DNA of 64,000 nt, from IMG/VR virus record IMGVR_UViG_3300045988_163304, positions 64,001 through 128,000 of that record; one strand, 5' to 3'. The notes below the pieces were generated by a model that ran no database searches, had not been told where the DNA came from, and worked only from the letters and a program-made list of their open reading frames with translations. Position 1 is the first letter of the stretch; every line of letters begins with the position of its first letter. The translations under genes were made by a program, and so were the position numbers. Positions 4,761-47,000 of this stretch are shown piece by piece. Origin of the DNA: a virus.

Positions 4761-5362
4761 TAAAAGTATTAACTATTGATTTTGATATTATGCTTTGGAA
4801 ATCTATTGAATTATATAATGGAATGGCTGGGGCTGTTTCTTGGGAAGAAATTGAAAAAAATGAATTATTACATTTTGTTCAATTTGATAGTCAAATTTAT
4901 GAATTATTAACAAAAACAATTTGTCAAATCAGTAAAAATATTCCAAAAGAAAATGTTCATTTTATTACTTCTCATTAGCGTGCAGTAAAATACATTCCTT
5001 AGAATGAATTAGTTGAGTTAACTAATATTGATCATCATCATGATTTACAATATAGTGATTAGGATAATATTGATATTTTAACTTGTGGAAATTGGGTTAA
5101 ATATCTTTTTGAACATAATTATAATATCAGTAAATATATTTGGGTTAATGATCCTAATTCTATTTATTGTCAATTTAATAGCAAAAGATATTGTTAGCAA
5201 TCAGATATAATTTAGGCTTATGATTTAACTATGACTAATTATGATGTATTAATTATTTGTTTATCTCCCCCATGGGTGCCACCTAAATATAGACCATTAT
5301 ATAATTGTTGGATTGATATGTTAAATCGGATTTATGATACAACATTTGTCGTAGATGATTGA
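4757..5362 (+). CDS. hypothetical protein (IDHHHD motif); five in-frame TAGs
   Basis: Continuous frame from 4757 to TGA at 5360-5362 if TAG is sense. Confidence 0.45.
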
Positions 5363-5387
5363 TTTATAATAAATTATATGGTATAAT
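5359..5387 (+). promoter_or_regulatory. sigma70-like promoter upstream of the polymerase gene: TTGATT, 17 nt, TATAAT
   Basis: -35 at 5359-5364 and -10 at 5382-5387 with an exact 17-nt spacer. Confidence 0.5.
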
Positions 5388-8400: not shown

Positions 8401-9378
8401 AAGCCAAGTAAGCAAGCAATGATTTCATTGATTAAAAGCGGTGCATTTGATGAAATGATGGACCGTAAAGATTTAATGATTTGGTATATTTGGGAAACAT
8501 GTGATAAAAAATCTCGTTTAACATTACAAAATTTAGCAACTTTAATTCGTTATAATTTATTACCAGAAGATAAAGATGAATATATAATTGCAAGACGAGT
8601 TTACGAATTTAATAGATATTTAAAAGCCGTTTGTAAAGATGGTAATGTGTATAAAGTCGATGAACGAGCAATTAATTTCCTAACTGAAATTGGTTGTGAC
8701 GATTTAATTGGTAGTTGTTACCTCTTAGATTCTAAAGCTTGGGATAAAGTATATCAAAAATATATGGATACATTCCGGGCTTGGATTACAGAGAATAAAG
8801 ATGTTATTTTAAATAAACTAAATAATAAAATATTTAAAGATGATTGGGATAAATATGCATCTAAATCTATTTCTGCGTGGGAGATGGAAGTTTTGTGTTT
8901 CTATTATCATGAGCATGAGTTAGCCCATGTAAATAATAGTAAATATGGATTTGTCGATTTCTTCCATCTACCAGAAGAACCAATTGTTGATAAAGTTTTT
9001 TCTAAGGGTAATAAAACGATTACTATGTATAAATTACACAAGATTTGTGGAACTTGTATTGCTAAAAATAAAACTAAATCAACAGTTACATTACTCACTA
9101 CTTCTGGAGTTGTTGAAGTTAAATTTAGAAAAGAATATTTCTCATTATTTGATAAACAAATTTCAGAAAAACAAGCTGATGGTACTAAAAAAGTAATGGA
9201 AAAAAGCTGGTTTAATCGTGGTAATATGATTGCTGTTCAAGGTATTCGTCAAGGTGATAATTTTATAGCGAAAAAATATGCCAGCTCTGGTGGTCATCAA
9301 TTATATAAAATTGATAAAATTTTAGATAATGGTGATATTGAATTAAAAGATGAAAGATACAATGGAGGATCTAATTAA
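5425..9378 (+). CDS. dnaE: DNA polymerase III alpha subunit (DnaE-type) with an N-terminal PHP domain; no internal TAG
   Basis: PHP motif GVHNHTHYS; palm active site GSATGFLSNYLLGITQLDP...PDIDIDLA; RBS AGAGGTGG. Confidence 0.85.
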   Translation: MRPYFGVHNHTHYSNLRLLDSINRPEELIKTAEKLGLSGIAITDHECLSAHMEVNQFAKDFLKEHPDFTIALGNEIYLTDTRDCGQKYYHFILLAKDEIGYKALKELSSTAWINSYTDRKMERVPTLKSELKNVMAQYKGHVIATTACIGGELGSNLYPMYEAEVVGDIQTKSIYYNNVVRFIEFCINVFGKDDFYLECAPSTMKDQLVVNQKIYQVAKAYDLKMVVGTDAHYLTKKDRPIHKAYLNSKDGEREVDSFYEFAYVMDSDEVEELMLPYMDTWDKNKTPQEIMNWIFDNTLEIQKKIKFYSLERKQQIPRVEVIDYKKGFIPADWLEKYPVICSLINSDDIQERYWVNECIKALQEKQLYENETYISRLETEANVIKNIGEKLEDCLFAYFNAFKHYIDLFWECGSIVGPGRGSATGFLSNYLLGITQLDPIRWGLPYWRFLNLERAELPDIDIDLAPSKRPAIFSAIRKERGTLGLIQVATFGTEGTKQAILTACRGYRSDDYPNGIDVDEAQFMSSLIPQERGFLWPMKDVVNGNPDKDRKPVTTFIQKVNQYPGLLDIIVYIEGIVNKRSSHASGVILYGEDPFETASFMKTPSGDLITCWDLHKAEAAGDTKYDFLVTEACDKIIQCYNLLKEDNQIPDIGLRDFYNKYLHPEVIDTSDKRIWEHLAAGDILDVFQFSTGVGLAIAKKLKPKDPMEMTAANAMMRLMSEKGKESQQDRYYRIQKAGIQVFDKEMKDNHLPDEMIEKMHKHCDRYYGCCPLQEQMMEILMDVAGFTLGEANSARKVVAKKQMAKIPQLKEQVFSKFTNEHNAEYFWENAIAPQLGYAFSLNHSLPYSFVAIQMIYLAINFNPIYWNCACLIVNSGALENEPEEMSDEDYDYSGEEYCGVSPEDVMENKPKNKKVASTDYGKIAKAIGDIQSAGIKVSLADINKAKFGFAPDVENNQILFGLKGLLNVGDDLINNIIANRPYISVKDFYYRIKPSKQAMISLIKSGAFDEMMDRKDLMIWYIWETCDKKSRLTLQNLATLIRYNLLPEDKDEYIIARRVYEFNRYLKAVCKDGNVYKVDERAINFLTEIGCDDLIGSCYLLDSKAWDKVYQKYMDTFRAWITENKDVILNKLNNKIFKDDWDKYASKSISAWEMEVLCFYYHEHELAHVNNSKYGFVDFFHLPEEPIVDKVFSKGNKTITMYKLHKICGTCIAKNKTKSTVTLLTTSGVVEVKFRKEYFSLFDKQISEKQADGTKKVMEKSWFNRGNMIAVQGIRQGDNFIAKKYASSGGHQLYKIDKILDNGDIELKDERYNGGSN

Positions 9379-9974
9379 TGTATAATATATTAGCATTAAT
9401 TGGTGAAGCGGGGAGTGGTAAGGATACCATTCTCCGTAAACTAATTGATGATACAAAACATTATTATAATGGTAAATTACCTCTACATGAAATTATAAGT
9501 TATACTTCGAGACCTCCAAGAGAAAAAGAAGTGGATGGTATTAATTACCATTTTATCTCAGCAGAAAAATTTGCTGAAATGATTTTATAGAATCAAATGT
9601 TTGAAGCTACTGTTTTTAATGAATGGTGCTATGGCACAGGAATTGAGTCAGTCAAAGAAGGCGCTATCAATGTAGGAGTATTTAATCCAGAAGGCGCAGA
9701 GATTCTATTACATGATAAACGAGTAAATTTAATTATCGTTTATATCCACGCAGATGATAAGATTCGATTAATTAGACAGTTAAATCGAGAAGTTAACCCG
9801 GATATTGATGAAATTATTCGTCGATATAAAACAGATAAACTCGATTTTGAAGATGCTGATGATTTATGTAATTGGTTATATATAAATAATACTCCTGCGG
9901 AATTAGAATATATATATAAAGATTTAGCATTGTTCCTGTCTCGATGGCCGGAGCATCTGGACACAACTTATTAA
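9378..9974 (+). CDS. guanylate-kinase-like nucleoside monophosphate kinase; one in-frame TAG at 9591
   Basis: P-loop GEAGSGKDT; TSRPPREKEVDGINYHF...YGTG matches the Gmk family. The two ORF fragments share one frame. Confidence 0.65.
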
Positions 9975-9988
9975 TCTATTTACAACAA

Positions 9989-10035
9989 ACACTAAATATA
10001 GTGGATATCCTAATTTTTTCCACTATATTTAGTGC
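9989..10035 (+). promoter_or_regulatory. tandem NrdR-box-like operator pair (two 16-bp boxes, 31 bp start to start) overlapping the nrdD promoter and RBS
   Basis: acactaaatatagtgg (9989-10004) and ccactatatttagtgc (10020-10035) match the NrdR consensus acaCwAtATaTwGtgt at 14/16 and 13/16. Together they also form a perfect 16-bp inverted repeat. Confidence 0.5.
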
Positions 10036-10046
10036 GGAGGTTATAA

Positions 10047-12296
10047 ATGTTTTATATAATTAAACGTAATGGCGATGTAATGCCATTTAACAAACAAAAA
10101 ATTATTGATGCTATTACTAAAGCATTTATTGCTGTAGATAAAAATATTTTTGAATCAGATAGTATTAATAGCATCGCTGATGAAGTAGAATATAGAGCGA
10201 GTCATTTCCCCGATGGAAGCGTTAATGTTGAAGACATCCAAAATTGGATTGAAGAAGCATTAATGGCATCAGAGCGTCCTGATATTGCTCGTGCTTATAT
10301 TCGCTATAGATATAAAAAAGAAGTTGCTCGCACTCATTCAACTGAATTTATTGCTGCAATTGGTGAAAAAATTCGTGGAGCTAATATTCAAAATCAAAAT
10401 GCTAATGTTGATGAAGCATCATTTGGTGGGCGTATGGGTGAAGCTAATAGTCTCTTAATGAAGCAATATGCTCTTGATTATATCGTATCTCCTCGTACAA
10501 AACGTAATCATGAAGAGAATATGATTTATACCCATGACCTTGACCATTATGCTGTGGGTGACCATAACTGTTTATCAATTCCATTTGATGATTTGCTTGC
10601 TAATGGATTTAATACTCGTCAAACAGATGTGCGTCCAGCAGGTTCAGTAAACACAGCATTTCAATTAGTTGCAGTTATTTTTCAATTACAATCTCTTCAG
10701 TAGTTTGGTGGAGTGAGTGCTACTCATCTTGATTGGACTATGGTTCCCTATGTTAAAAAGAGTTTTAGAAAACATTTTAAAGCATATTTAACTGATGTTG
10801 ATGATTATAGTGAAGGTATGGCTCTACAAATTATGAGTGATTGTGAGCCTATTGAAATTTCTAATAAAGAATTGCAAAGTCAATTTGGTCATCAAAATGC
10901 TTATAATTATGCTCTAAAACAGATAGAAAAAGAAATCCATCAAGCAGTTGAAGGTATGTATCATAATTTAAATACTCTTCAAAGTCGTAGTGGTAATCAA
11001 CTTCCATTTACTTCTATTAACTATGGAACTTGTACTCTTCCAGAAGGAAGAATGATTACAAAAGCCATATTAGAAGTGTCTCTTGAAGGATTAGGTAAAT
11101 TACATAAAACTTCTATTTTCCCTTGTGGAATTTTCCAATGTATGAAAGGTGTTAATAGAGAACCAGGTGACCCGAATTATGATTTATTTAAACTTGCGTT
11201 AAAATCTACTGCTAAAAGATTATATCCTAATTATGCAAATGTTGATTGGTCTGGAAATGCTGGCTATGATATTAATGACCCACGCACCTATTTTAGCACA
11301 ATGGGATGCCGAACTGCTAATGGATATGATATTAACGGTTTAGGTCAATTAAAAGATGGCCGTGGCAATATTTGTCCGGTAACTATTATTATGCCTACAC
11401 TAGCTATGATGGCAAAAGAAGCAGCTGAAAATAGTGATTTTCAATTAACTCCAAAAGCTGCTAGGATTAGAAGTTTTATGACTTTACTTGATGAAAAAAT
11501 CCATGAGGCAAAAGATCAATTAATTGAACGTTTTAATTGGATTTGCTCTCAAAGTCCGGCTTCAGCTAAATTCATGTATGAAAACAATCTAATGGCAGGT
11601 TATATTCCCGAAGAAGGAATTAGAAGTGCGCTTAAACATGGAACACTGGCTCTAGGTCAGTTAGGACTAGCAGAAACTCTACAAATTCTTATTGGCGTTG
11701 ACCACACTACTCCAGAGGGAATGGAATTAGCAAAAAAAATTGAATCCTTATTTAAACAGCGTTGTGCGGAATTTAAGGAACAATATAAATTAAACTTCGG
11801 TGTTTATTATACTCCCGCAGAAAATCTCTGTTATACTGCAATGAAGAAATTTAAGGCTAAATACGGCGAAATTCCTAATGTAAGTGATAAAGAATTTTTT
11901 ACTAATTCAATTCATGTTCCTGTATGGAAAGAAATGAGCCCATTTGATAAAATTGATATTGAGAGTCAATTAACTGGATATAGTAATGCCGGTTGTATTA
12001 CTTATGTTGAGTTAGATTCTACTGTATCTAATAACTTAACTGCTCTTGAGCAAATTGTAAATTATGCTATGGATAAAGATATTCCTTATTTTGCTGTAAA
12101 TGTTCCTAATGACACTTGTCTCAAGTGTGGATATACTGGTGAATTCAATGATAAATGTCCAGAATGTGGTAGTAAAGAAATTCAGCAACTTCGTCGTGTG
12201 ACCGGTTATTTAACTGGTAATTATAAAACTGCGTTTAATTTAGGAAAGCAAGATGAAGTTGAACATCGAGTCAAACATGTAGGAGTGATGGAATGA
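10047..12296 (+). CDS. nrdD: anaerobic ribonucleoside-triphosphate reductase NrdD; one in-frame TAG at 10704
   Basis: LNTLQSRSGNQLPFTSINYGT; C-terminal Zn ribbon CLKCGY...CPECG and glycyl-radical RVTGY. The two ORF fragments share one frame. Confidence 0.85.
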
Positions 12297-12787
12297 GATA
12301 CGCCGGGATAATTAAAAATGATATTGCTGGAGCTCCTGGAGTGTGTGTCTCATTTTTCACTCAAGGATGCGCCAGACATTGCGAGGGCTGTTAGAATCCA
12401 GAAACTTGGGATTTTAATGGCGGAAAAGAATTTACTACAGATACATTAGATGATATAGTAAATGCTCTTACTGCTAATGGTATACATCGTGATTTTTGTA
12501 TTATGGGAGGAGAACCCCTCGCCCCAGAAAATCTATTCCTTGTAGATTTAATTATTGAACATATTAAAGAAGCTCTTCCTAAAACAAAAATTTTTTTATG
12601 GACTGGATATATAATGGATGAATTGGCTATGCGCAGAGAGCCACATCTAAAAAATATTGTTGATAATATTGATTGTATTATTGACGGCCCATTTAAGATT
12701 GAACAACGAGATATCACCTTACCTATGCGTGGCTCACGCAATCAAAAAGTTTATTACGCTCCATTTGACTTATGGGAAAAAATATGA
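12293..12787 (+). CDS. nrdG: anaerobic RNR activating radical-SAM protein NrdG; one in-frame TAG at 12392
   Basis: ATGA start/stop overlap with nrdD. GCARHCEGC-[TAG]-NPETW matches the NrdG CxxxCxxC motif; C-terminus LWTGY...IIDGPF. Confidence 0.85.
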
Positions 12788-26539: not shown

Positions 26540-29500
26540 TTAATGAATAATTGTCAGTGCTCCATCAGGAATATCAGTAAATTTCTGGAGAGCAATACTT
26601 TTATCAAGATCAGTATACCATTCGATAGAATTTATCTATACAGGGCTTACACTAAAATAACCTTGAATAGCTTCATTTTGCATATTAGCATTTGTAAGTT
26701 TTGATTTACTATCAGATGTACCAATAATAATTTCATTAATACCAGAACTTCTTGCACTATTATAGTCACTCATACTACTAAATACAATACTTGCACTGCC
26801 CATTTTTTGAACTTCTGATCCAATAATAAGAGTAGTTAAACTAGGAGCCCAAGCATTCTTAATAGCATCAGTTTGAATTTCTGCGATAGTACCATTTAAA
26901 TTACTATTTATTAAAGAAGGCGTATTAACTGTTCCACTAGAGCCTATTCCTTTAAAAGTATAAGCTTTTAATATTCTTAATCCTTCTGGGAATTCAACCC
27001 ACACTAATTGGTTAGAACTATCAAACGTACCTTTGCTAAAATAACGTAGATTACATTTAGTCTATCCATTTTCTTCAAATTTTTGGAAGAATACATGAGT
27101 TAAATTTTCACCATAACAAACAGGAACAAGAACTGAATCGTAACCATTAAGTATACCTTCAGTTTTTCCTACAGGATTAGTTAATCGTTTAACATCTTCT
27201 AAAGTAGAACACCATAAATCACCAGGAGTACCAAATGTGGCATCAATACCTATTACACGTTTTTCTACACCATCGACTGTGAAAAATGCTGGTACTGTTA
27301 GTTTTCCTTTAACTTTTTTATTTAAAGCTAAAACGATACCATTATCTAAACTCCAACGAGGATCTAAATTATCTATATACCGTGAAGAAGTGTCTTGAGT
27401 TGAAGGAGTGAAATACTCAGGATGAATATCTTCATATACATTAATAGGATTATTATCAAATACTGCATAAAATGTAGTGTCTTCAGTAATCATATACTCT
27501 TCTAATTTCATAGCAGAGGAAGCAGTTGCAGAACGATTATAACCTAAGAATTTATAAGTCTACTCTAATGGTAAATCGCTATCATCTTTCCAAGGAATAA
27601 TAGTAGACATTACAGCATAATTACCATGAGGAATTTTTTTCTCTTCGATTAATGTATTATCTTTATAATAATATTTAACACTCCATTTGTGGATAGGACA
27701 AATAGCATAGAATGTATAAGTGTGAATATTATTATCAAGAGTTTGTTCACTCCATTTATTAATACTTTTATCAATATTAATAAGAATATCAGCACTAGCA
27801 GAATTAGTTAATGCCCAACCATAGAAATCATGATTTGGCTTTTTCTCACTAACATCGCCAAATGCATCAATAGGATCTGCAAACCAAGTTTCGCCTTCTT
27901 TTAAGGTCATAGAACCAATTAATTGATAACGACCATCATTACCTTCATCTTCATCCATAATTACAAATCTAGCAGTATATCCCTGTTCTACATTTGCACA
28001 GAAGATTGTTAAATCAGGATAAGCAACTTGAATAGTATTACGCAATTCAGATTCTTTAATAACTTCTGTATTATTAATATAAATAATACCAGAGATATCA
28101 GGAATGTTTTTACTAGAATTTTTAATCCATTTCTTATCACTAATAAATTCTTTAAACATAGCTAAATCAGTAATTTGATTTATTTTATCTTCTGGGATTG
28201 TTTCATCCTTACGATAAATTTCGCCATTTTCAACTTTAATAGTCCATGCATCAAAATTAGTATAAGTGTAAGGTTCTAGTCCATAATGACCATTATCTAC
28301 ATAATAAGTAGTAGATGGATTGCGCTCATCGTCGACTGTCATCTAAATATATGGACACCAATTAACATTAGTCATAGAAATCTAAGAAGTGTTAGTCTAT
28401 TGGCTACGAATAGTATAATATTGCTTTAATAGCTTATAACTATCATAACCTAAACCACCACCAGCGATATTTAGAGAAGCAATCACTGTATCTCCTTTAT
28501 CTCCAGTTGAAGTCTTATCAAAGAAACCTTGGAGGTATAAACCAGGATTAGCATGTAAATTACCTTCATCATCACGAGTAGGATTTTTATATTCATCTTC
28601 AGTAATTATATTCTTTAATAAGTTGGCTTCAACCAATTCAAGATTTGTAATACTAGTAGGTAAATATACAGTATTTAATGCTACACCCTTAGCAAATTGA
28701 ACGTTAATTAAATTAGATCCAGTAGCACGGAAATTCTCTAATTTTTCACAACTAGTTAAATCTAATACAGGAGAAGCAGCATTAAACTGAATATTACTCA
28801 TATTTACTTCTTTTAATAAAGGCATACCTTTACTATCAGAAGAGCTGGCAGGAATACTGAATTGGTTAACATTATCATTATGCCAACGCTCTCCATTTAC
28901 ATCCAAACCATCATATCCTAATTTCAAACTAGTTAATTTAGTAGCATCACCAGAAATTTCAAACTCTTGCCAATATAGATTACTCATATCGCCAAGGTCT
29001 TTCATTTGGTTAATGCCATAAACATATAGTAATTGTTCAGGATAATTTTCACTCTTACGGACACCATTTTCAATAGAGTCAATATTAAATCTTAATGCAT
29101 GAACACCATCATATTTACGAGAAGGATAGGCTTCATTATCATCACCAAGAGTAACATAAGAAGAATGGGCTGGAGTTAATGTCATCCAATATTCAGCATC
29201 AAATAAATGATTTTTAGTTAAAGTGCTTTCATCCTTGAAATAAGGATCGCTAGCCGTTTCAATCCATTTATCTGAAGTCTTATTTTTATTGTTCGCGGCT
29301 ACACGACCACGAATGCGGTTCGCACCACCACGTTGATAGTTACCTTCATTTAACCAAGAGTCAATATACTCTAAACGGTTAGATAAAAATTGTTGACGAG
29401 ATAGACTTCTATTTCCTTGTAAAGCATAGAAATAAGTACCATTAGTATCAACAGTATATACACCAGTTGTATCACTGCTAATATGTCCAGTAGTACCATC

Positions 29501-32500
29501 TAAGTAAGAAGCATCATTTGTAATAGTGATATATTTATAATATTCATCTAAGTTAACTGCTACCAATGGACGAGTGCCCAAGTCAGCTAAATTATTTGTT
29601 GTATTATAATCAGTTAAATAATATGATTCAATACGATCAACAGTTTTTAAAGGTGGCTGTTTTAAATTAGAACCAAATACACTGGTAGTAATACCACGTA
29701 AATGTCTATACTTAGGAATAATTAAGCCAGTTTTAAAATATTTATAGAAGTTATTCCATAAAACACTATCAGAAGTAGAATAGTTACCATCTTCAGTAGC
29801 ATCAACATTATATTCAAATGAAGGAATACCAGTATTATTAATACCTAATTGAGTATCAATATCATAGAAAAGTGGATACCAAATATAATCTCCACCTTCT
29901 TTTTGAGGGCCCCAAGAAGCCATCATGCAGTTTTTACCACGAGAGTCATAACATTCAAAAATTTCTGTCATAACAAAATAAGTAGCCATATATTCTTTAT
30001 CGAAGTGGTCACTTAATTCATAAGTAAATTTATCACCACGATATTCTTGCGTGTCATATTTATAAGAGCGATCACCATAAATAATAGTGGTTCCAATATA
30101 ATATTTATTTGGCTCATAAGTTTCAGCAGTCACAGTAGCTTTAGTTACTGCTTTACCGCATTTAGCATTTCCATCATAGTTATAATATGTCTTACTTGCA
30201 TCAAATGCTTCATCTTTACATAAAATAACTAATCTATCAGCCTTTGTGTCTAGCTCTTCATCGCTATAAGATTCCAAAGTATAATAACGCTTATCAGGAT
30301 TGAATGTATCAGTACTATAACAAGGAACATAAGTAATATTATTATTTTTATCAACTTCACCAGTATATAATTTAGTTTTAATAGCACTAAATAATACTGT
30401 TCCAACATAAGCAACGATATATTCATGACTATTTTCTTGATTGGGATTATAATCAGGATTCTTTTTATAATAAGTAGTGCCTTCTATATATTCTTTAGCT
30501 AAGGTATAAATCTACTCAGAAGTTGATGGATTAGGTGTCATAATATAATGTTTATTACTATCAAATAATTCTTCACCAACATCACAGATTTTATAAGTAC
30601 CATTTGATACAACTTTTTCAGTACAAGTACTCCAAACCCAAGCTACAGCACGTTCCCAATTAGAATAATCTTTCAATAAATGTTGAGCGCGATTTTCTTG
30701 ATTTAATGTAATATCATCCTTAGAGAATGTTAATGTTGGGTCTTTCTTACATTCTCCATCAGGAGCCATAATATAATCAAGGAGATCCTCATCATTATGA
30801 TAACGATATTCAAATGAGTCTGCTACCACAGGAGCAGATTGAACAGCATTTAATACACGAGAACCATCAGCATTAAATACATCAAACTTTAAATCTTTAC
30901 GATCTTGTGGATCGCGATATGAGCAGAAGGTACGACTATTATTTTCAAACTCCCAACATTCTGCTACTTTAGGCATACTCTTAGTACCATCGTCTATGAA
31001 TTTAGCTTTTGGGTCTTTGCCAGTAGTATTATCAAGAGCGAATCCATATACTTCGTCAGAGCCTTTATCTAAAAGCATGTTATACATACCAATAAATTGA
31101 TAGATAGGTTCTGTGCTACCATCAACTGGTTTCTTTTTGTGGAACGCAAGTACACGGAAACCTCGTACAGAAGTACGATAATCATCAGTATTTTCAACTT
31201 TAAAATCACTATATCCAGGTTTCATAATATACCATTTATTATATTTAGGATTACTTGAATCAGCTACTTTTAATTTTGAATAAACAGTTGGATTTTCAGC
31301 CATTAATTTTTGATATAAGGCATATGGGCCTAAATCAAAATCTTCTTTACTAGTAATCACAATATTATCTTCTAAGACTGTATTACTTGCTGTTTTTGGA
31401 TTGCCTTTATGATTATAATAAGTATAAGTAGCATCAGGGATATATTCAGTTGTTTCAGTTTCAACAGTTTTGTCAGAATCTAAAACCTAAAATGCTTTTG
31501 CATTATTATAATCGTCTAATGGATGTTTAGAATAAGCATTTTTAACCATATTTGCAAATCCCATATTATAAGTTCCAGAAGATTCCATATAGTCAATCTT
31601 CATAGTAAATTTAGTAGTACCGCAAGTATAGTTATTAAAATACCAATATTTTTGACGAGTTTTTTCATCGCCACGTTTTACATAAGCAGTATTTTCAATA
31701 TAGAAAGTATTAGGTTTATAAGGATTAGTTTCGCTAAATGTAACTTCCTTTTCACCATTTTCATCTTCATAATATTTAATTTTTAATTGGCCAGTAGCAG
31801 AATCAACTAGAGGACCTAATGTTGTACTTAAAATATAAGGCTTCTAAGTAGAACCTAATACATCAGCATTATACTATTCTCTGAATGGTCCACGGTTTAA
31901 GAAAATGTTAACACGCTTTTCGCCATCTACCGCATCGTTATTTTTAGTTTTAACTTTATAATTTCTACGAGGATAGAATTCAGATGAAGTTCCTTGAACG
32001 CTCATTGATGCGCTATCACTAATAAATGAAGGACAATGATATTTATAATAAGTTTCAACAGCTTTTTGTTTTTCAGCTGCTGTCGCACCATCACCAAATA
32101 ATTTATCAGCTTTAGCTAATTCTTCCAATTTACCTTTATTATAATACATTTCAAGCGGAGTATTAACAAATTCAACTCCAACATTTAATTTAACTTTTTT
32201 AGAGTAAGGAAGTTTATTTTCACTATCTTCTAATTTAGTAGTATCAAAAATAATATAAGGCATTAATGGAGCATCAGGATGCTCATTATTATACTTTATC
32301 ATATTAGTATAACTAAATTGGAATTCATCGATAGCAGTATTTTCTTCTGCTAATTTATTTTGATCATAAATATCTACATTCTCAAAATCAGCAGCATAAT
32401 TCATGACAATATCATTAACATTTAAATCAGTACGATATACACGGACTTTATATAAATCAATATCGCAATAATCACTGTTAAATTCAATTTTATCATTTTC

Positions 32501-34702
32501 TACAGTAAATCCATTTTCTTGAGTATTTCTAACAACACTAGTTAATACACCATTTAAATAAATGTAAATTAAGTTTTGAATTTCTTCTTTGCTATATTTA
32601 CAAACAACAGATAAAGTAATAATTTTATTTTCAACATAAGACACATTTACTGTATTAATACCATTAGAGAAAAATGCATCCTATGGACCTAAACATAAGC
32701 CAGTAACGGCCTTAGTATTGCCAGAATAATAACCGCCTATGACATTATTTAAATTAATTTGTTTTTCAGTTTTAGCAAATTTTAAATCATCATATTCCAT
32801 TCTACGTTTAACGCCATTTTTATCAACAAATTCAACTTCATAAGTTTTTAAATACCAAGCTAAAAATGCATCATAGTTAGTGTATGTAGTATTAAATTTA
32901 CCAGTTTCTTCATTATAAAATGCTTTATATAAATCACCATCATTTTCATAGCGAGTAATAGTACGAATTAAATTTGAATAGTCTTGAACATTACGAATTT
33001 TAAATGTTAATTCAATGGTATGAGATTGTTTAGTATCTTGAGGACCATCAGGATTTGCAAATACAGTAGGTCCAATAGGAATAGATAATTTAGCACCATT
33101 ACTAATACGTAAACAAGTTTTATTATCTTCGTCAGTGGTCCAGCCATTATTATACCAATTAAAATTAGTAAATGTTGCTGTGCAAGGTTCAGCTCCTAGA
33201 GCAGTAGAAGAATTTACTAAAGTAGTACGTTTAGCTAACGTTTCAGAATTAGAACGTCCGCTACCTACTGTATTTAATAAATAAGTTAAAAAGCCCTGCT
33301 TCTAAATACCAAAGTCTGTTCTTGTTGGGTCGTTTACAACACGAATTTCAATTTTACGAGTAGTCTCACGCGCTCCATCACCACAAGTAATAGTGTAGTG
33401 ATTAATTACATCTAATTCAGGATTAGCAATTTCAAAAATCGCATAATTTTTAGAATCAGTAATTGTTTGAGGAGAATAAGAAAGTTCAATATTGTTACGT
33501 TTAAAATGCACTATTGGGTTTTCAGCCTATGGATCAAAAACCCGGAAAGGAATTTGAATAGTGTCATAACTATAATATTCATCTTTATAATCTCCCAACC
33601 AAATAATTGGAGGAGCTTGAGGGTTTAAACCATCATAAACAGCTACTTCAAAAATTAAAGGATTAACTTCAATTCCTTTTTTACCATTAATAGATTGGAA
33701 TAAACGAATCCAAACTTTATGATAACCATTAGTTACAGTTGTATATTGTGAAACATTAACACTCTATAAAGTAGTTGCATTCGCCGTTAGAGGCACGCTT
33801 AAAAATGGTTCATCTTCATTGTCGAAATAATATTCAACAATTTTATCCATCGCACCATTAACATTACATTGTAATACTAATTTATTGGGATCAAAATAAC
33901 TTAAATTAGAAAAACTACTTGATTCTTGTAATTCTAATTTAGAAGTTTTAAATGTTATTAAACGAGTAACTGTGCTTGAATGGTTAGTTTGGCTAGCTAC
34001 TAACACTAATCTTGAAGAAGCATCATCCTTAGCTAATTTACCAAATTCAAAAGCATATTTCTCCCCATCAGGTACTTGAAATGTTCCTGAATTATACTGA
34101 TTATAGTTAGTACCATCATCAGTATACTCTAATTTCCAATTAATTGTAAGGATAGAATCATAAGAATTACCCTTTTTATTTTTGGCTGATGTAGCAACAA
34201 ATGTTACTTCTTGAGAGCGTCCATTAATTAAGTTAACAGTAGGTAATGGGTCTACAGTTAATTCGATGTCAGAAGCCAATGAACCAGGGGCATCTCCACC
34301 ACCACCACCAGCAACAGTTAAACGACGACATAGCACATTTTGAAATGCTCGCTGAACTTTTATTACACGATAAAAACAATTATCGCCTAAGTTGATAATT
34401 AAATCATCTTCTTCGGGATACTCTCCGCCTTCAATAGCTCCGATTGGAATATTGATTTCATCTTCTAATTTTTCAGCATCAGTCGGAGTATAATTGGCAT
34501 AATAAATACCAGAATTACTTCCTGAGCCACCACCACTACCGCTTCCTAAAAGCTTTCGTGATACCATTGTGCCATCAGCTTGAGTATAGTCTATGAAAAT
34601 TTTACCAGTATCGACTGCAAAATAAACATATCCATCATTAAAACCCATTAAATCCAATTTCGCTTCAGTACCACGAACAGGGATGAATCGTTTATTGCTC
34701 AT
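26540..34702 (-). CDS. giant (~2720 aa) tail fiber / host-recognition protein, read through 11 in-frame TAGs
   Basis: Nine consecutive track ORFs (33764, 33302, 31874, 30512, 28397, 27560, 27062, 26636 ...) are all in one frame, each bounded by cta (= TAG) on the plus strand. The gaps 32645-33301 and 33512-33763 were checked codon by codon and hold only TAG. N-terminal fiber motif GYVYFAVDTGKIFIDY; TAA at 26540. Confidence 0.55.
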
Positions 34703-41398: not shown

Positions 41399-44005
41399 TT
41401 ATAATAACCTTGGCGGTGCTTTTGTTGCTGTAATTGTCATTGTTCCATTGTGTGTTAATTGTAATGATATTTTATTAAGTATATATTCACCATGTATATC
41501 ACTTTTATTATCATCTACTGTAATAATACTATTTGGTTCTAAATAATATATAGGGATAGTTTTTAAACTAATCTTTTCATTCATATAAGCATATTGATAA
41601 AGTAAATCATTTAATTCAGTATAAGCTGTTTTGCTCTATGAAGTAATATTAAATTTATTTTCATAAATAGAAGATAAAGGCATATAAGCATACCCATCCT
41701 ATAACATATTCTATTTTTTATATAATTCATATTTTTCAGGATTAATATAAATAATATTAGGAGTATCTCTATAAATAATAGACTTAATAGCATCATTATT
41801 AACAATTTTCGGCCTATCTCCAATAGCTTTTACAGAATACTTGCCAATAAAACTACTAGCGTCTTCTATAAAATCCATCCAATAAACAAGAGCAGAAGGA
41901 TCATTAACATAAGTGCGATTCCAACCATAATACACTTTTTCCTAATCCGTTAATTTATTTGTATGTCCCGCTTTAACAACATAATATTTATCTTCATCAT
42001 CAGAAGTAGGATTATAAATATCTCTCCAATATAATAACATATCGGCATAATAACTTTCATATCCAGTCTATCCATTTTTATAAGTTGGATTTAATTTAGC
42101 TAAACGTATAGCATAATCATCATCATGACCATATTGCTAATAATCACAAGCCATTTGGTATATTAATTCACGCCAATTCTATTTTGTATAATAAATATTT
42201 TCAGAATCTTGAGTAGGAATAATTGGTTTGTAAACAAAAGCTCTACCACCATGCTAATACAATGGATCAAAATAACTATTCCAAGGATGAGTGCAAGAAG
42301 CGCCATGACCAACATATCCAATAGTATTATCTGATAGTAAATCAAAAACATATAAATCTTCTTTCTCATTATCCCAACTACCATAATAAGGTCCAATTTT
42401 TGCTCCATTATAAGTATAAGCCATTAAATCATTATCAGTTGCAGGAGTATAAATTTCATTTAAATTAATTTTCGCGCCGTTTTCTTTTTTATAATATTTA
42501 CTTAATACACCGGCAGGATAATCACCAAAATATAATTTATATAATTCTGCCCAATCTTTAACGTCCCACCAATCTTCACTCAATGGCTCTCCTGTTAAAG
42601 TATCATTTGGGTTAAGCGTTTTTGCAAACTCTCCAGTGGCTTCTGGATCATAACTACGATAAGTAATACCAGCGAACGTAGTATAAATCTTTGGTTTTTC
42701 ATCAATAGCATATCGTAAATGAATTGGAGCTCCCTCACTATTAGAAGAAGTTGAATTTTTTTTACCCCAAATAATAAAATTATTTTTTATTTTAGAAAAA
42801 TCTGGCGTATTCTAAAATGAAGTAATTAATATATTATCAGAAAAATTATATTTGCTCTTAGAAGTTAACATAGCATTTTCTTCATATAATTGGTTATATT
42901 CATAATTAGTTAAACTATTTTTATCAATAGCTTTTATTTCTTTATCTTGTATTACATCAGCACTATTTTCTGTTCGGACAACACTCGTCCAAGATTGATT
43001 AACATAAGTCATTTTTTTCTAAAAAATAAATTGTCCATTAATATCATAAAAATATTCATAAGTCCCAAAAGTAGAGCAAATTTTATCTAATACAGAAGTA
43101 ACTGTATCTCCTACATTTACAGCTAATCCATCTTCTGTTGGCCAATATAATTCTACATCTCGATATCCAGCAGTAGAATTAGCTTCAATCTTAGAAACAT
43201 AATATCCTATCTTATCAGTAATACCATCTTTTAATTTTATTTTAAAATCTGTCGATCCAATAGGAGTTAATTCATTATTAGTTAAATCTTGTAACTAAAC
43301 TTTTCTACCATCCATAGTATATTTTGTCATACTGCCGTCAAAAGTAATATTTACATAAATACCATTATCATCTAAGAAAGCATATAAATCGCCATCATTA
43401 TATTTCAAAAGCTCTAACCCCCGATCAGTTAAATCTTTTATTAAAATATTATGAAAAGGTTCATTGCCGTAAAAATGAATCATTTCTCGGACAATCTAAA
43501 AAATAGGAATTTTAACATTAGTAAAACTACCATCTGGATTTTCTCTGCGCTCAACAGCAAAGTCTATCGGATTCGGGAAATTTCCTCCCACTTCTCCATT
43601 TAATAAACACATTTTATCTTTTCCAGAAATTGAAATCATACATTGATTAGAAGATAAAGAGGTGTTAAAATTAGTAATAACAAATACTCCTTGCGGAAAC
43701 CAAATAATATTTTCATAATCATCATCAATATTATTAATTAAACCAATATATAGTTTAAATTTAGTAGTCAAACCCCAATAAACATCGGTAATATTTACTC
43801 CAGTAGAAACAAGAGAAATCGAACAAGACCGACGTATAGCGGAGGATCCATCAATATTAATGGATCCTCCAGTGGCCTTTCCTTCAATTAACTCTATAGG
43901 CTCTTCATCTTTATTTAAACTAATTATTTTTATAAAAATTTCTTTCTAATTATTTAAATCTAATTTTTTTAAAAATTTTGTATCTAATAATGGATTATTT
44001 TTCAT
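41399..44005 (-). CDS. tail or baseplate protein (~865 aa); many TAGs
   Basis: Six track ORFs (41399, 41711, 42254, 42812, 43295, 43496) share one frame. Confidence 0.45.
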
Positions 44006-44022
44006 TGATACATACCCGCCTT

Positions 44023-47000
44023 TATCTCTCTTGTATAGCCTTTATCTAATTCAAGGATAAAATTATTCCAAGCATCTTTTACTTGCTATACTAATTTTTT
44101 CATTTGAGCGTCTTTTGAAGAAGCATCTGATTTATAATACTCATAATACTATTTAGAATTGGAGTCAAGAAAACCAGTAAAAATCTAGAGATATTCAGTA
44201 TATTTTGATTCATAATAATCTTTTTTTGATTTATATAATGTTTGTTTATTTGTATACATTGTTTCTAAGATTTCAGCCTATTTTACTGCTGCTTCACAGG
44301 CTTTAATATCTTTACTTAAAACTAAATCAATATACCAATAAAAAATACCAATAGAAGTAATAGCGGGGTAAGTATCATCAGGTTTATTTGAAATTGTAGG
44401 TTTATTTGTAAATAGCTCCAATAGTAAAGGATTAATACGATATTTATTAAATAACTAACTATTGCACCAATAATACAAAATAGCAATATTAGAAATTCCT
44501 TTCAACAAACTTAAATACTAAAATTTTCTCCAAGTAATTGAATCCGTTTCATTAAGAGCAGTAATTTTATAATTTGCAGGATTATTAATTTTTACATTTT
44601 TATTAAAAATATTTCTATTATTTTTATTATAAGCTAAATATAAATTATATGCCGTTCCTGATGCATCTAATAATTTATTATAAGCAGAGATAATATTATC
44701 AATTGTGCCCCGTTCAGTTAAAGCATTATCTCCTCCAATAGTATTATTTAAAAATGTCAAACGAGAACCAGTATTTAATCCTATGGTTTTTTCTATCATT
44801 TGTCGCTCAGGATAAATAATTTTATTATCTTTCATAAAAGTATTAAAAGACTCACTATTATTTGCCGTAAGAGTAATATTATCTTGATATTTATTATTAA
44901 TGTATAAATTAATTGTACCCCCAAATAATTCTGCCTGTTTAGGATTGTTTAATTCTAAAAATTGACTAATAAAATTATAAGTATTATTTTTTTTATCCAA
45001 ATCCGCTACTGGCAAATTATTATAATATTCTATAAATGTTTTTGCCAAAGCATCTCTATCTTTCATATAATATTGCACTGAATCATCAAAAACAGTAGCT
45101 ATTTTATAATTAGAATTTTCATAAATATAGTATTTTTTCTATTTAAAAAATTCATCATTCTCTATAACATTATTAACTTTAATAAATTCATCAGTCAGGC
45201 CTTCATTAATTAATATAGATTGATAGGACTAAATTAAAGTATTATAAGCATTTATAATATTATTTAATCCATTACCCTGCTCTGATAAATCAAATAATGA
45301 TTCAAAACATTTATCTCCATAACTATTTGAATTAATATAAGAAATCTAATCGGATAAAACATCTAATACTTTACGATAACCATCAGATACATAAGGCTTA
45401 CAAGTATTATCAATTAAATTAATTAAAGCTTTAATTTTAGCAGCCCGCATCGAATTTTCTTCAACAGTATATACTGGTTCATCAAATTCAATACTATTAT
45501 ACATACTATTATCAATAATTTCTTCAGAATTTGATAATTCAAAAATGAGGCCTCGACTTGTCTCTGCTTTGATATTTTCTTGAATAGTAGAAGTTAAAAT
45601 AGCTAAATATGATTCTGATTCTTGTATACCCTATGGCTAATCTATATATTTAAATCTATTTAACAATCTATATCTCATTAGAAAAACCTAGGTCCAAGCT
45701 TTTGCCTATGTCTCATATGATAAATAATTATTAATAGCTAATAAACCATAATGGTTTTTCGCACTTTCTTCAGCGCACCACTATTTTATATTTAATGTTT
45801 GATTCAAATAATTTTTATAAATACTATTTATCATAAAATTAGACCATTTTAAATCTAAAGAGGCTTGATAAATACTTTCAATTTTATCAGCATATAAAAT
45901 TAGAGTTTTAATAGTTTCACTATCACTATCTGACAAATTATTTGTTTTTCCTTCGCTAATAAACTTATCAGCTAATGATTGATAAGCTGAAAAGGCGTTA
46001 GTAGCATAATCTCCACCAACAGCATACTAAAATAAATCTTTTACTGTTTTAAATCCGCTGTTATTTAAATGAATATTTCCAATTTTTTCCATTGTACTTG
46101 CAACCTATTCATAAGGATATAAAGCTTGATTAGTTTGTTGATTAATACCAATATATTGAATTAACGCCTCAGAGTCTGGCTCTCCTTCTTTTATCCCAAA
46201 TAAAAATCGTAAATTATTATGAGCTGTTTTTATTTTCCAATAATTTTCCAAACAACTAAAAATATCACTAGAAATTGAAGTTAAAAATAGATTATCTAAT
46301 TCAGTATCATTTTCTCCATCAATTACCATATCTTGATAAGTAGCTATAGATACAGATAATTGAGTTAAATTATTCCAACTTTCTAAATAATATTTTAATT
46401 GTTTCAATCGAGCTTGAGCTTCAGTAGAACTAGTATCAGAAGTTCCATCTATTTGTTGATAATGATTTTTAATTGAATTTAAAATTTTCTCAATAGAAAT
46501 TGAAGACTCTAAATTAGTTAAAAACTTTTCATCATCTTTATATTTATTATAGTTTGTAGACTAAAAATCATCTAATATTAAAGCAATATGCTACATAATT
46601 AAATTATATAACCATAAACCTGCTTTATACTAATAAATATTAGTATTATATTCATCAGCTTTAGTTTCTAATCTATTAATCTAAAGTACATAATTTTGTA
46701 CTAACATTAAAGCATTTTCAACAACCCCATTGCGCTAATTATATAATTTTTTTAATAAAGTTGTAATTTTAGCTAATTTATCATTAATACCAATTTTAGA
46801 AGTTTTTTGAATTAAATCAACTAAATCATTTTCTTCATTTTCAACTAAATTTAATTCATTATACATTGTTTTATTTATCTATAATTTACGAATTAAATCT
46901 TCTACTTTTTGTTTATCTGCCATTTTTTGTTCTTCTGTTGTGCCTTTAGCCCAAAGATCAGCTATATTATTACGCTAAGTTATTTGAGCCTAATTTGTAT

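What the first reader, a model, noticed from the sequence alone, without database searches (positions are those of the whole stretch)
9989..10049. NrdR-box-like operator pair on the phage nrdD-nrdG operon
Two 16-bp near-palindromic boxes match the bacterial NrdR consensus. They are spaced exactly 31 bp start to start, which fits cooperative NrdR binding on one helical face. They lie between a -35-like TTTACA and the RBS of nrdD. This suggests the phage places its anaerobic RNR under host dNTP/ATP-sensing control. The same sequence could instead act as an RNA hairpin.
Basis: partly seen in the sequence, partly recalled or inferred. Interest (0 to 1): 0.55.

Follow-up and report, generated by a model that had tools for sequence, protein, structure and literature searches.

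The report
NrdR operator on a phage nrdD
A large uncultured gut or rumen phage carries, directly in front of its anaerobic ribonucleotide reductase genes, a textbook two-box binding site for the bacterial repressor NrdR, so the phage probably lets the host's dATP/ATP sensor decide when its own DNA-precursor enzyme is made.

Summary

- **The site.** Box 1 (9989-10004, ACACTAAATATAGTGG) and box 2 (10020-10035, CCACTATATTTAGTGC) are separated by a 15-bp spacer. Box 2 ends 1 bp before the GGAGG Shine-Dalgarno and 11 bp before the nrdD ATG.
- **Match to NrdR.** A weight matrix built only from 16 experimentally bound bacterial NrdR boxes ranks these two sites first and second in the 64-kb window. 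The pair scores 33.0 bits, against a maximum of 22.9 in 500 shuffles.
- **Defining features.** Both boxes keep C4 and G13, which are essential for binding, and the spacer length is optimal.
- **Conservation.** The same two-box architecture sits at -54 to -70 from nrdD in many divergent uncultured phages. The boxes are conserved, the spacer sequence is not, and the spacer length stays at 14-17 bp.
- **Specificity.** An exact core motif occurs in 38 of 2.9 million viral contigs, and 36 of those lie directly upstream of nrdD.
- **RNA hairpin rival.** The boxes form a perfect 16-nt inverted repeat that would fold as RNA. Validated bacterial nrdDG operators show the same dyad, 5 of the 14 box-keeping relatives folded lose the hairpin, and there is no G-U bias.

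No nrdR gene lies in the window, so host NrdR is the likely binder. The host, the promoter and actual binding remain untested. This is a new member of a known kind and moderately interesting.

The parts
9989..10004 (.). NrdR box 1 (ACACTAAATATAGTGG)
   Evidence: It scores 17.06 bits on a PWM from 16 experimentally bound bacterial boxes, the top score in the window. It has 2 mismatches to the consensus. C4 (9992) and G13 (10001) are present.
10005..10019 (.). 15-bp spacer between the boxes (ATATCCTAATTTTTT)
   Evidence: The length falls in the 14-17 bp range that gives the strongest NrdR binding (PMC12051234). In relatives the sequence is not conserved (0.29-0.39 bits per position) but the length is: 14-17 bp, and 15 or 16 bp in 19 of 24 lineages.
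10020..10035 (.). NrdR box 2 (CCACTATATTTAGTGC), near-exact reverse complement of box 1
   Evidence: It scores 15.98 bits, the second-best site in the window. C4 (10023) and G13 (10032) are present. It is a 16-nt perfect inverted repeat with box 1.
   Evidence: Read from the sequence. Its partner 17 bp downstream is TGGATA (10002-10007), which matches TATAAT at only 2 of 6 positions. The same geometry holds in relatives and in a Treponema MAG nrdD promoter: a -35 lies 4-5 bp before box 1 and the -10 sits at the junction of box 1 and the spacer (L107: TTGACA-18-TATAAG; L025: TTTACT-18-TAGAAT). This is inference; no transcription start data exist.
10002..10029 (+). Alternative promoter-like site TGGATA-16-TATATT, lying inside the operator (candidate only)
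   Evidence: This is the only + strand consensus match that overlaps the operator (9 of 12). The number of such matches in the region equals the shuffle expectation (7 found, 7.4 expected).
10037..10041 (+). Shine-Dalgarno GGAGG of nrdD
   Evidence: Read from the sequence. In nearly all relatives a GGAGG follows box 2 within 0-3 nt.
10047..12296 (+). nrdD, class III anaerobic ribonucleotide reductase with an N-terminal ATP-cone; one in-frame TAG at 10701-10703 read as Gln
   Evidence: Pfam finds ATP-cone, NRDD and Gly_radical domains. The frame is continuous across the TAG. The homologue in L108 has SLQQFGG where the window has SLQ*FGG.
12293..12787 (+). nrdG activase; its start overlaps the nrdD stop (ATGA); in-frame TAG at 12392-12394
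   Evidence: Pfam finds Fer4_12. Sequence read. L108 NrdG has GCQNPESW where the window has GC*NPETW.
9378..9974 (+). Upstream gene: guanylate or dNMP kinase-like, with an in-frame TAG at 9588-9590. It ends 14 bp before box 1.
   Evidence: Pfam finds Guanylate_kin. Relatives have the same upstream gene.

Best explanation
Positions 9989-10035 are a bona fide NrdR operator: two 16-bp palindromic boxes separated by 15 bp, placed on the phage genome directly in front of nrdD-nrdG.

**Shown from the sequence.** The site matches experimentally bound NrdR sites in sequence, in spacing and in position relative to an RNR operon. It is conserved as a box-spacer-box unit in a clade of uncultured, TAG-recoded gut or rumen phages.

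**Inferred from established NrdR biochemistry (PMC9110341, PMC12051234, PMC12176259).**
1. A host NrdR tetramer loaded with dATP plus ATP places one Zn-ribbon pair on each box. The boxes are about three helical turns apart and related by the tetramer's pseudo-two-fold axis.
2. The tetramer kinks the DNA and occupies the 47 bp that end 1 bp before the Shine-Dalgarno.
3. This blocks RNA polymerase at a promoter overlapping the boxes, or acts as a roadblock to read-through from the upstream polymerase-kinase genes.
4. When phage DNA synthesis drains dATP, NrdR carries only ATP and shifts to oligomers that do not bind DNA. The phage reductase is then derepressed.

The net effect is that expression of the phage's dNTP-producing enzyme follows the host cell's own dATP/ATP sensor. 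The perfect inverted repeat between the boxes reflects the dyad symmetry of the operator, not a selected RNA structure.
For: 1. A PWM built only from 16 experimentally bound boxes of Listeria, Streptococcus and E. coli (Suppl. Table 3 of PMC12051234) ranks the two boxes first and second in 64 kb, at 17.06 and 15.98 bits. Both lie inside the training range of 10.3-20.1 bits. The pair scores 33.05 bits against a maximum of 22.86 in 500 shuffles.
2. C4 and G13 are present in both boxes. Mutating them cuts binding at least 350-fold (footnote). The 15-bp spacer lies in the optimal 14-17 bp range.
3. Box 2 ends 11 bp before the ATG. In L. monocytogenes nrdDG the distance is 13 bp.
4. Of 115 related nrdD loci, 49 have a pair score of at least 20 bits at -54 to -70 from the nrdD start. 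The best pair elsewhere in the same roughly 6.6-kb loci is usually below 10 bits.
5. Among 24 distinct lineages, information content is 1.34 and 1.15 bits per position in the boxes and 0.29-0.39 in the spacer. The per-position profile correlates at r = 0.93 with that of the validated bacterial boxes.
6. The exact motif CTAAATATAGT-N17-21-ACTATATTTAG occurs in 38 of 2.9 million IMG/VR contigs, and 36 of them have nrdD starting 12-26 bp downstream. One of these fronts a different NrdD subfamily with 33% identity.
7. The inverted arrangement of the two boxes is also seen in validated bacterial operators. At informative positions 30 fit the inverted model and 14 the direct model, and S. pneumoniae nrdDG is a perfect 16/16 inverted pair. 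The NrdR tetramer has pseudo-C2 symmetry seen from the DNA-binding side.
8. The window holds no nrdR gene. An NrdR HMM hits only the NrdD ATP-cone. Only 14 IMG/VR contigs encode an NrdR relative, and none belongs to this clade. A host protein is therefore the likely binder.
Against: - No binding or expression data exist. The host is unknown, so the presence of NrdR in it is assumed. The assumption rests on NrdR being present in most bacteria and on the strong GGAGG Shine-Dalgarno sites, which suggest a Bacillota-type host.
- No convincing promoter overlaps the operator. TTTACA-17-TGGATA matches 7 of 12 positions and TGGATA-16-TATATT matches 9 of 12. Promoter-like hits in the region are no more frequent than in shuffles. 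nrdD may therefore be transcribed from the near-consensus promoter before the polymerase gene (TTGATT-17-TATAAT, 5359-5387), in which case NrdR could act only as a roadblock.
- Only 64 kb of a roughly 197-kb genome was checked for a phage-encoded NrdR.
- Phage lineages share ancestry, so the conservation counts are not independent events.
- Four characterised phages with nrdD (phiCD211, vB_EcoM_REC, TR-TP2, Phass-1) lack the boxes, so phages do not generally need this control.
Confidence: 0.8

Rival explanations
1. The inverted repeat acts as an RNA hairpin in the nrdD leader or in read-through mRNA from the upstream genes. Possible roles are a 5' stabiliser, an RNase III processing site or a translational element. 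On this view the NrdR-like sequence is incidental.
For: The 16-bp perfect stem with a 13-nt loop folds at -21.9 kcal/mol (z -8.9) for the 53-nt segment, and at -24.8 kcal/mol (z -6.2) for 9975-10060. Several relatives also fold well, with z from -3 to -5.6. At informative positions box 2 fits the reverse complement of box 1 far more often than a direct copy, 113 against 39.
Against: - Five of the 14 box-keeping lineages folded have no hairpin, with z from -0.9 to +1.0.
- Among inter-box pairs that are not Watson-Crick, there are 11 G-U and 17 A-C, so RNA wobble is not tolerated preferentially.
- In-register complementarity of the spacer is 38 pairs observed against 37.9 expected, so the stem is never extended by selection.
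- Conservation is of base identity at the NrdR-informative positions (r = 0.93 with bacterial boxes), not merely of pairing.
- Each arm is itself palindromic, which a hairpin does not require.
- Validated bacterial NrdR operators show the same dyad.
- There is no Rfam match.
- The hairpin does not sequester the Shine-Dalgarno and no T-run follows it.
- If transcription starts inside the operator, only one arm is in the RNA.
Confidence: 0.07
2. The boxes are an inert relic. The nrdDG cassette was captured from a bacterium together with its promoter and operator, and the site no longer does anything in the phage.
For: RNR genes are frequently transferred horizontally and carried by phages and plasmids (PMC3019208). 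The window's own promoter signals around the boxes are weak. Other phages manage without the boxes.
Against: The boxes persist while the spacer and flanks have turned over, among lineages whose NrdD N-termini are only 62-70% identical. They also sit in front of an NrdD of a different subfamily. Spacer length is held at 14-17 bp. An unselected 47-bp AT-rich site would not keep 1.2-1.3 bits per position against 0.3 in the spacer.
Confidence: 0.06
3. The site is bound by a different dyad-symmetric protein, either a phage-encoded regulator or another host factor, that happens to recognise an NrdR-like sequence. Alternatively a phage-encoded NrdR homologue lies outside this window.
For: Only 64 kb of about 197 kb was searched. 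NrdR homologues are occasionally annotated in phages (PMC8790148; PMC10294663; 14 IMG/VR contigs).
Against: The match to the NrdR matrix, the C4/G13 positions, the spacing and the exclusive association with nrdD are all specific to NrdR. None of the 14 NrdR-encoding viral contigs belongs to this clade. However, that scan needs exact conserved peptides and could miss divergent copies.
Confidence: 0.07

Closest known systems
Listeria monocytogenes nrdDG NrdR operator (Shahid et al. 2025, PMC12051234)
   Same: It has two 16-bp boxes with a 15-16 bp spacer directly upstream of a class III RNR operon. Box 2 ends 13 bp before the ATG (11 bp here). Its outer half-sites are weaker and its inner half-sites are ACAC-type. 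The core CTAAATATAG of the phage box 1 is identical to that of the Listeria nrdAB distal box 1.
   Different: It lies on a bacterial chromosome, its promoter and transcription start are mapped, and NrdR binding was measured at nanomolar Kd. The phage site has no experimental support, and its two boxes are a perfect inverted repeat.
Streptococcus pneumoniae nrdDG NrdR operator
   Same: Box 2 (ACACAAGATATTGATT) is the exact reverse complement of box 1 (AATCAATATCTTGTGT), as in the phage. This shows that a fully dyad-symmetric box pair is a normal NrdR operator.
   Different: The spacer is 24-25 bp (four helical turns) instead of 15 bp, and binding is weaker.
Host transcription-factor sites on phage auxiliary metabolic genes, for example PhoB boxes before cyanophage pstS/phoA, NtcA sites in cyanophages and LexA boxes in temperate phages (recalled from my own knowledge, not checked here)
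   Same: A phage gene that duplicates a host metabolic function is wired to the host regulator and signal that control the host's own copy.
   Different: The regulator, signal and hosts differ. In the library searched, no paper describes NrdR boxes on a phage genome.
Phage T4 nrdD (sunY)/nrdG and other characterised phage class III RNR loci
   Same: A phage-encoded anaerobic reductase and its activase lie among replication and nucleotide-metabolism genes.
   Different: The characterised phages examined here have no NrdR box pair near nrdD: phiCD211, vB_EcoM_REC, Thomasclavelia phage TR-TP2 and Phass-1 all have a best pair of 10.4 bits or less. That T4 uses its own phage-programmed promoters comes from my own knowledge.

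Membership tests
NrdR operator (pair of NrdR boxes) | Two 16-bp palindromic boxes matching the NrdR consensus | tested here: met
   The boxes score 17.06 and 15.98 bits on a PWM from 16 experimentally bound boxes. These are ranks 1 and 2 in 64 kb and lie within the training range of 10.3-20.1 bits. They have 2 and 3 mismatches to ACACTATATATAGTGT.
NrdR operator (pair of NrdR boxes) | Conserved C at position 4 and G at position 13 of each box (mutation reduces binding at least 350-fold) | tested here: met
   C is at 9992 and 10023, and G is at 10001 and 10032. The requirement is stated (Suppl. Table 4 footnote).
NrdR operator (pair of NrdR boxes) | Spacer of 14-17 bp (or 24-27 bp) between the boxes, placing box centres an integer number of helical turns apart | tested here: met
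   The spacer is 15 bp (10005-10019), so the centres are 31 bp apart. The binding optimum is 15-17 bp. Relatives keep 14-17 bp.
NrdR operator (pair of NrdR boxes) | Published search expression C.[AT].A[AT].[AT].G twice, 20-23 nt apart | tested here: met
   It matches at 9992 and 10023 with a gap of 21, on both strands. The expression is weakly specific here, with 4.3 pairs expected by chance per window.
NrdR operator (pair of NrdR boxes) | Located upstream of a ribonucleotide reductase operon | tested here: met
   Box 2 ends 11 bp before the nrdD ATG, and nrdG follows. Of 38 exact-motif viral contigs, 36 have nrdD 12-26 bp downstream.
NrdR operator (pair of NrdR boxes) | [quoted passage not shown] | tested here: inconclusive
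   Only weak promoter-like matches overlap the site (7/12 and 9/12). Such hits are no more frequent in the region than in shuffles. No transcription start data exist.
NrdR operator (pair of NrdR boxes) | Bound by an NrdR tetramer loaded with ATP and dATP; an NrdR is present in the cell | not testable with these tools
   The host is unknown. No nrdR lies in the window or in viral contigs of this clade. NrdR is reported in most bacteria.
Structured cis-regulatory RNA (conserved hairpin) | Structure conserved among relatives, with pairing-preserving substitutions that include G-U | tested here: not met
   Five of 14 box-keeping lineages have no significant fold. There are 11 G-U against 17 A-C pairs. 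The spacer shows no complementarity, 38 pairs against 37.9 expected. There is no Rfam family at E up to 1.
Intrinsic terminator | G+C-rich stem followed by a T-run on the transcribed strand | tested here: not met
   No terminator was called at this site. On the + strand the stem is followed by CGGAGGTTATAA.

The most novel reading that the evidence does not exclude
Beyond regulating nrdD in cis, the high-affinity, perfectly dyad-symmetric operator could act as a decoy once it is amplified to hundreds of copies on replicating phage DNA. It would titrate the scarce host NrdR off the host's own nrd promoters. A whole clade of TAG-recoded gut or rumen phages would then derepress host and phage dNTP synthesis together. 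The same sequence could also form a hairpin in read-through mRNA that insulates nrdD expression from the upstream polymerase operon.
Probability: 0.1. Interest if true: 0.7.

Novelty: new member of a known kind. Interest (0 to 1): 0.45.

Why it matters
Phage-encoded ribonucleotide reductases are among the most common auxiliary metabolic genes, yet how their expression is timed is known mainly for a few model phages that use their own promoters. Here a clade of large, uncultured, stop-codon-recoded gut or rumen phages keeps an intact host-type NrdR operator on nrdD. This implies that the phage enzyme is gated by the host's dATP/ATP sensor, being switched on when phage replication drains dATP and off when dNTPs are plentiful.

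The finding has three practical uses. It gives a directly testable case of a phage using a host nucleotide-sensing repressor. It offers a sequence marker that could help predict hosts, which must encode NrdR with this box preference. It also gives a natural set of operator variants for NrdR specificity studies. No paper in the searched library describes NrdR boxes on phage genomes.

Tried and rejected
- **Published regex.** On its own it is not significant in this AT-rich DNA (4.3 chance pairs per window). I replaced it with a PWM from experimentally bound sites.
- **Near-identity search against cultured phages.** It found nothing. A 70-nt distant BLAST of the operator against cultured phages gave only chance hits.
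- **Bacterial genome scan with NrdD.** It returned mostly MAG contigs that look like mis-binned phages, so it gave little true host-promoter comparison and no host assignment.
- **Search for nrdR.** tblastn and an HMM found none in the window. A pattern scan of IMG/VR found only 14 contigs, none from this clade.
- **Other operators in the window.** There are none. The single box-like sites at 43741, 50819 and 5283 have no partner.
- **Promoter assignment.** It stayed unresolved.
- **Spacer palindromes.** A few relatives (L047, L071, L097) have them, which looked like hairpin covariation, but a permutation test showed no overall excess.
- **Rfam.** No match.
- **Terminator reading.** Rejected, because no T-run follows the stem on the coding strand.
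Full report
**What is in the sequence.** The 72-nt gap between a guanylate or dNMP kinase-like gene (9378-9974) and nrdD (10047-12296) reads:

TTTACAacaaACACTAAATATAGTGGatatcctaattttttCCACTATATTTAGTGCgGAGGttataaATG.

- Box 1 is 9989-10004 and box 2 is 10020-10035. They lie 31 bp apart start to start, with a 15-bp spacer.
- They have 2 and 3 mismatches to the 16-mer ACACTATATATAGTGT. About 0.84 such sites are expected per window.
- Together they form a perfect 16-nt inverted repeat, 9990-10005 with 10019-10034.
- The downstream genes are a class III ribonucleotide reductase with an N-terminal ATP-cone, and its activase.

**Is it more than chance?** Shahid et al. 2025 (PMC12051234) searched for NrdR boxes with the expression C.[AT].A[AT].[AT].G, twice, 20-23 nt apart. 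That expression matches here. In this 31% G+C DNA, however, it is expected 4.3 times per window by chance, so it proves little.

I therefore built a weight matrix from the 16 boxes of eight oligonucleotides that were shown to bind NrdR in that paper (Listeria, S. pneumoniae, S. thermophilus and E. coli; Suppl. Table 3). No phage sequence was used.
- The two boxes are the best and second-best sites in the whole window, at 17.06 and 15.98 bits. The training sites score 10.3-20.1 bits.
- The pair scores 33.05 bits. The next best pair in the window scores 16.1, and the maximum in 500 dinucleotide shuffles is 22.9 (mean 12.3, sd 2.7).
- Both boxes carry C4 and G13, the base pairs whose mutation lowers binding at least 350-fold.
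- Box 2 ends 11 bp before the ATG. In L. monocytogenes nrdDG the distance is 13 bp.

**Relatives.** The window has no near-identical cultured relative. The closest cultured NrdD is from Thomasclavelia phages TR-TP1 and TR-TP2, at 74% amino-acid identity. IMG/VR holds contigs of 100-200 kb that are up to 100% identical, and many more whose NrdD N-terminus is 62-70% identical.
- Of 115 related loci from IMG/VR and from MAG or isolate assemblies, 49 have a box pair of at least 20 bits at -54 to -70 from the nrdD start. The best pair elsewhere in the same roughly 6.6-kb loci is usually below 10 bits.
- In 24 distinct lineages the architecture is constant: the upstream gene's stop, an AT-rich stretch ending in AA, box 1, a 14-17 bp spacer, box 2, GGAGG, then the start codon.
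- Information content is 1.34 and 1.15 bits per position in the boxes but 0.29-0.39 in the spacer.
- The per-position profile (high at positions 4, 6 and 8; low at 1, 2 and 7) correlates at r = 0.93 with that of the validated bacterial boxes.
- The exact motif CTAAATATAGT-N17-21-ACTATATTTAG occurs in only 38 of 2.9 million viral contigs. In 36 of them nrdD starts 12-26 bp downstream.
- One of those (L159) fronts an NrdD of a different subfamily with 33% identity, so the operator does not simply travel with one gene lineage.
- In two Ruminococcus-assigned contigs (L108, from isolate YE282, and L105, from a MAG) a near-perfect pair heads a longer operon: thyX-like, kinase, deoxyribosyltransferase-like, nrdD, nrdG.
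- Four characterised phages with nrdD have no box pair: phiCD211, vB_EcoM_REC, TR-TP2 and Phass-1. The feature is clade-specific, not general.

**Operator or RNA hairpin?** The inverted repeat would fold strongly if both arms were transcribed. The 53-nt segment gives -21.9 kcal/mol (z -8.9), and 9975-10060 gives -24.8 kcal/mol (z -6.2). At positions where box 1 is not self-complementary, box 2 follows the reverse complement (113 positions) rather than a direct copy (39) across phage lineages. Taken alone, this could suggest a selected stem.

Five observations argue against that reading:
1. Validated bacterial operators show the same bias, 30 against 14. S. pneumoniae nrdDG is a perfect 16/16 inverted pair. 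The DNA-binding NrdR tetramer has pseudo-two-fold symmetry viewed from the DNA side. An operator with outer and inner half-sites related by a dyad is therefore expected.
2. Five of the 14 lineages folded keep recognisable boxes at the same position but have no significant fold, with z from -0.9 to +1.0.
3. Among inter-box pairs that are not Watson-Crick, G-U (11) is no more frequent than A-C (17).
4. The spacer shows no in-register complementarity, with 38 pairs observed against 37.9 expected.
5. What is conserved is base identity at the NrdR-informative positions, and each arm is itself a palindrome. A hairpin needs neither.

In addition there is no Rfam match, no T-run follows the stem, and the Shine-Dalgarno is not sequestered. 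The hairpin potential is best read as a by-product of operator symmetry.

**Who binds?** No nrdR gene lies in the window. tblastn found nothing, and an NrdR HMM on six-frame translations with TAG read as Gln hit only the NrdD ATP-cone, which serves as a sensitivity control. A scan of IMG/VR with an NrdR alignment found 14 contigs, none from this clade. That method needs exact conserved peptides, and only 64 kb of about 197 kb is visible here. The likely binder is therefore host NrdR.

The host is unknown. Related contigs are binned with Mollicutes, Clostridia and Bacilli MAGs, and one lies in a Ruminococcus isolate assembly. The strong GGAGG sites also point to a Bacillota-type host; that step is inference. 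NrdR is reported in most bacteria.

**Mechanism (inferred).** By analogy with the structural and biochemical work (PMC9110341, PMC12051234, PMC12176259), the sequence of events would be:
1. NrdR loaded with dATP plus ATP binds the two boxes as a tetramer.
2. It kinks the DNA and covers 9989-10035.
3. When dATP falls, NrdR carrying only ATP forms oligomers that do not bind DNA, and nrdDG is derepressed.

The phage reductase would then be made in proportion to dNTP demand.

**The weak point: the promoter.** TTTACA-17-TGGATA matches 7 of 12 positions. TGGATA-16-TATATT, inside the operator, matches 9 of 12. Such matches are no more frequent in the region than in shuffles. Some relatives and a Treponema MAG nrdD promoter have better elements in the first geometry (TTTACT-18-TAGAAT; TTGACA-18-TATAAG). 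A near-consensus promoter (TTGATT-17-TATAAT, 5359-5387) precedes the co-directional polymerase gene. Read-through transcription with NrdR acting as a roadblock therefore cannot be excluded.

**Comparison with what is known, and novelty.** The site meets every sequence-level criterion of an NrdR operator. Binding and promoter overlap are untested. Host transcription-factor sites on phage auxiliary metabolic genes are a known theme (my own knowledge: PhoB and NtcA sites in cyanophages, LexA boxes in temperate phages). Four full-text searches found no paper that describes NrdR boxes on a phage genome. The only phage-related mentions were occasional phage-encoded NrdR homologues. I classify the finding as a new member of a known kind: an ordinary NrdR operator in an unusual place, conserved across a clade of uncultured phages. 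Interest is moderate.

**Genetic code.** The window uses TAG as a sense codon. nrdD, nrdG and the kinase gene each contain one in-frame TAG. In nrdD and nrdG these align with Gln in homologues. Reading TAG through turns the fragmented minus-strand half of the window into long ORFs, with 255 in-frame TAGs in all. No tRNA gene lies in the window.

Noticed in passing
whole window; e.g. 10701-10703 (nrdD), 12392-12394 (nrdG), 9588-9590 (kinase), minus-strand ORFs 26540-34702, 44002-51300, 54353-62650: TAG is used as a sense codon, most likely Gln (code 15). The TAGs in nrdD and nrdG align with Q in homologues (SLQQFGG, GCQNPESW). With TAG read through, the ORFs carry 255 in-frame TAGs, and the fragmented minus-strand half resolves into very long ORFs of up to about 2,700 codons, with as many as 60 TAGs each. 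Recoding affects the early replication genes as well, not only the late genes. ARAGORN finds no tRNA, and hence no suppressor tRNA, in these 64 kb.
   Followed up: partly
window 43741-43756, 50819-50834, 5283-5292: These are isolated NrdR-box-like sites with no partner box at 30-33 bp: AACCAATATATAGTTT (14.5 bits), ACACTATCAATAGTAT (3 mismatches) and CCTAAATATAG. All lie inside coding sequence and are probably chance matches.
   Followed up: partly
L108 546-592 and L105 220-266: In two contigs assigned to Ruminococcus (L108, isolate YE282; L105, a MAG), near-perfect NrdR box pairs (CCACAATATATAGTGT-15-ACACAATATATAGTAT in L108; 37-38 bits) lie about 2.5-2.8 kb upstream of nrdD. In L108 the pair heads an operon of a thyX-like gene, a dNMP kinase, a deoxyribosyltransferase-like gene, nrdD and nrdG. 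There the whole nucleotide-metabolism module, not only nrdD, would be under NrdR.
   Followed up: partly
L159 1753-1801: Another TAG-recoded viral contig carries the same operator core in front of an NrdD of a different subfamily (33% identity, E. coli/T4-like GQYGGQS motif). This suggests that the operator is kept, or re-acquired, independently of the reductase lineage.
   Followed up: partly
L152 1356-1395 and L164 10163-10203: These are the only two exact-motif occurrences in viral contigs that are not next to nrdD. They form a longer hairpin (AAAGTCTAAATATAGT...ACTATATTTAGACTTT) followed by a T-rich run. This looks like an intrinsic terminator that shares the core sequence by chance.
   Followed up: no
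L001 5338-8461 (Thomasclavelia phage TR-TP2): In the closest cultured relative, nrdD is annotated in two pieces separated by an HNH endonuclease gene. This may be a mobile intron or intein-type insertion. It has no NrdR boxes, and the upstream gene overlaps the nrdD start.
   Followed up: no
window 5359-5387: A near-consensus sigma-70-type promoter (TTGATT-17-TATAAT) lies 20 bp upstream of the 1323-aa PHP/DNA polymerase III alpha-like gene. It heads a co-directional array of polymerase, kinase, nrdD, nrdG and dUTPase genes. It could supply read-through transcription into nrdD.
   Followed up: no
L102, about 60 nt upstream of nrdD: The ribosome-binding region is tandemly duplicated (gatgtataataaatatagtggaggcggttt, twice) upstream of nrdD in a Clostridia MAG contig. 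The repeated ATAATAAATATAGTGG lacks C4, so it is not an NrdR box.
   Followed up: no
window 12293-12296: The nrdG start codon overlaps the nrdD stop (ATGA), which suggests translational coupling of the reductase and its activase.
   Followed up: no
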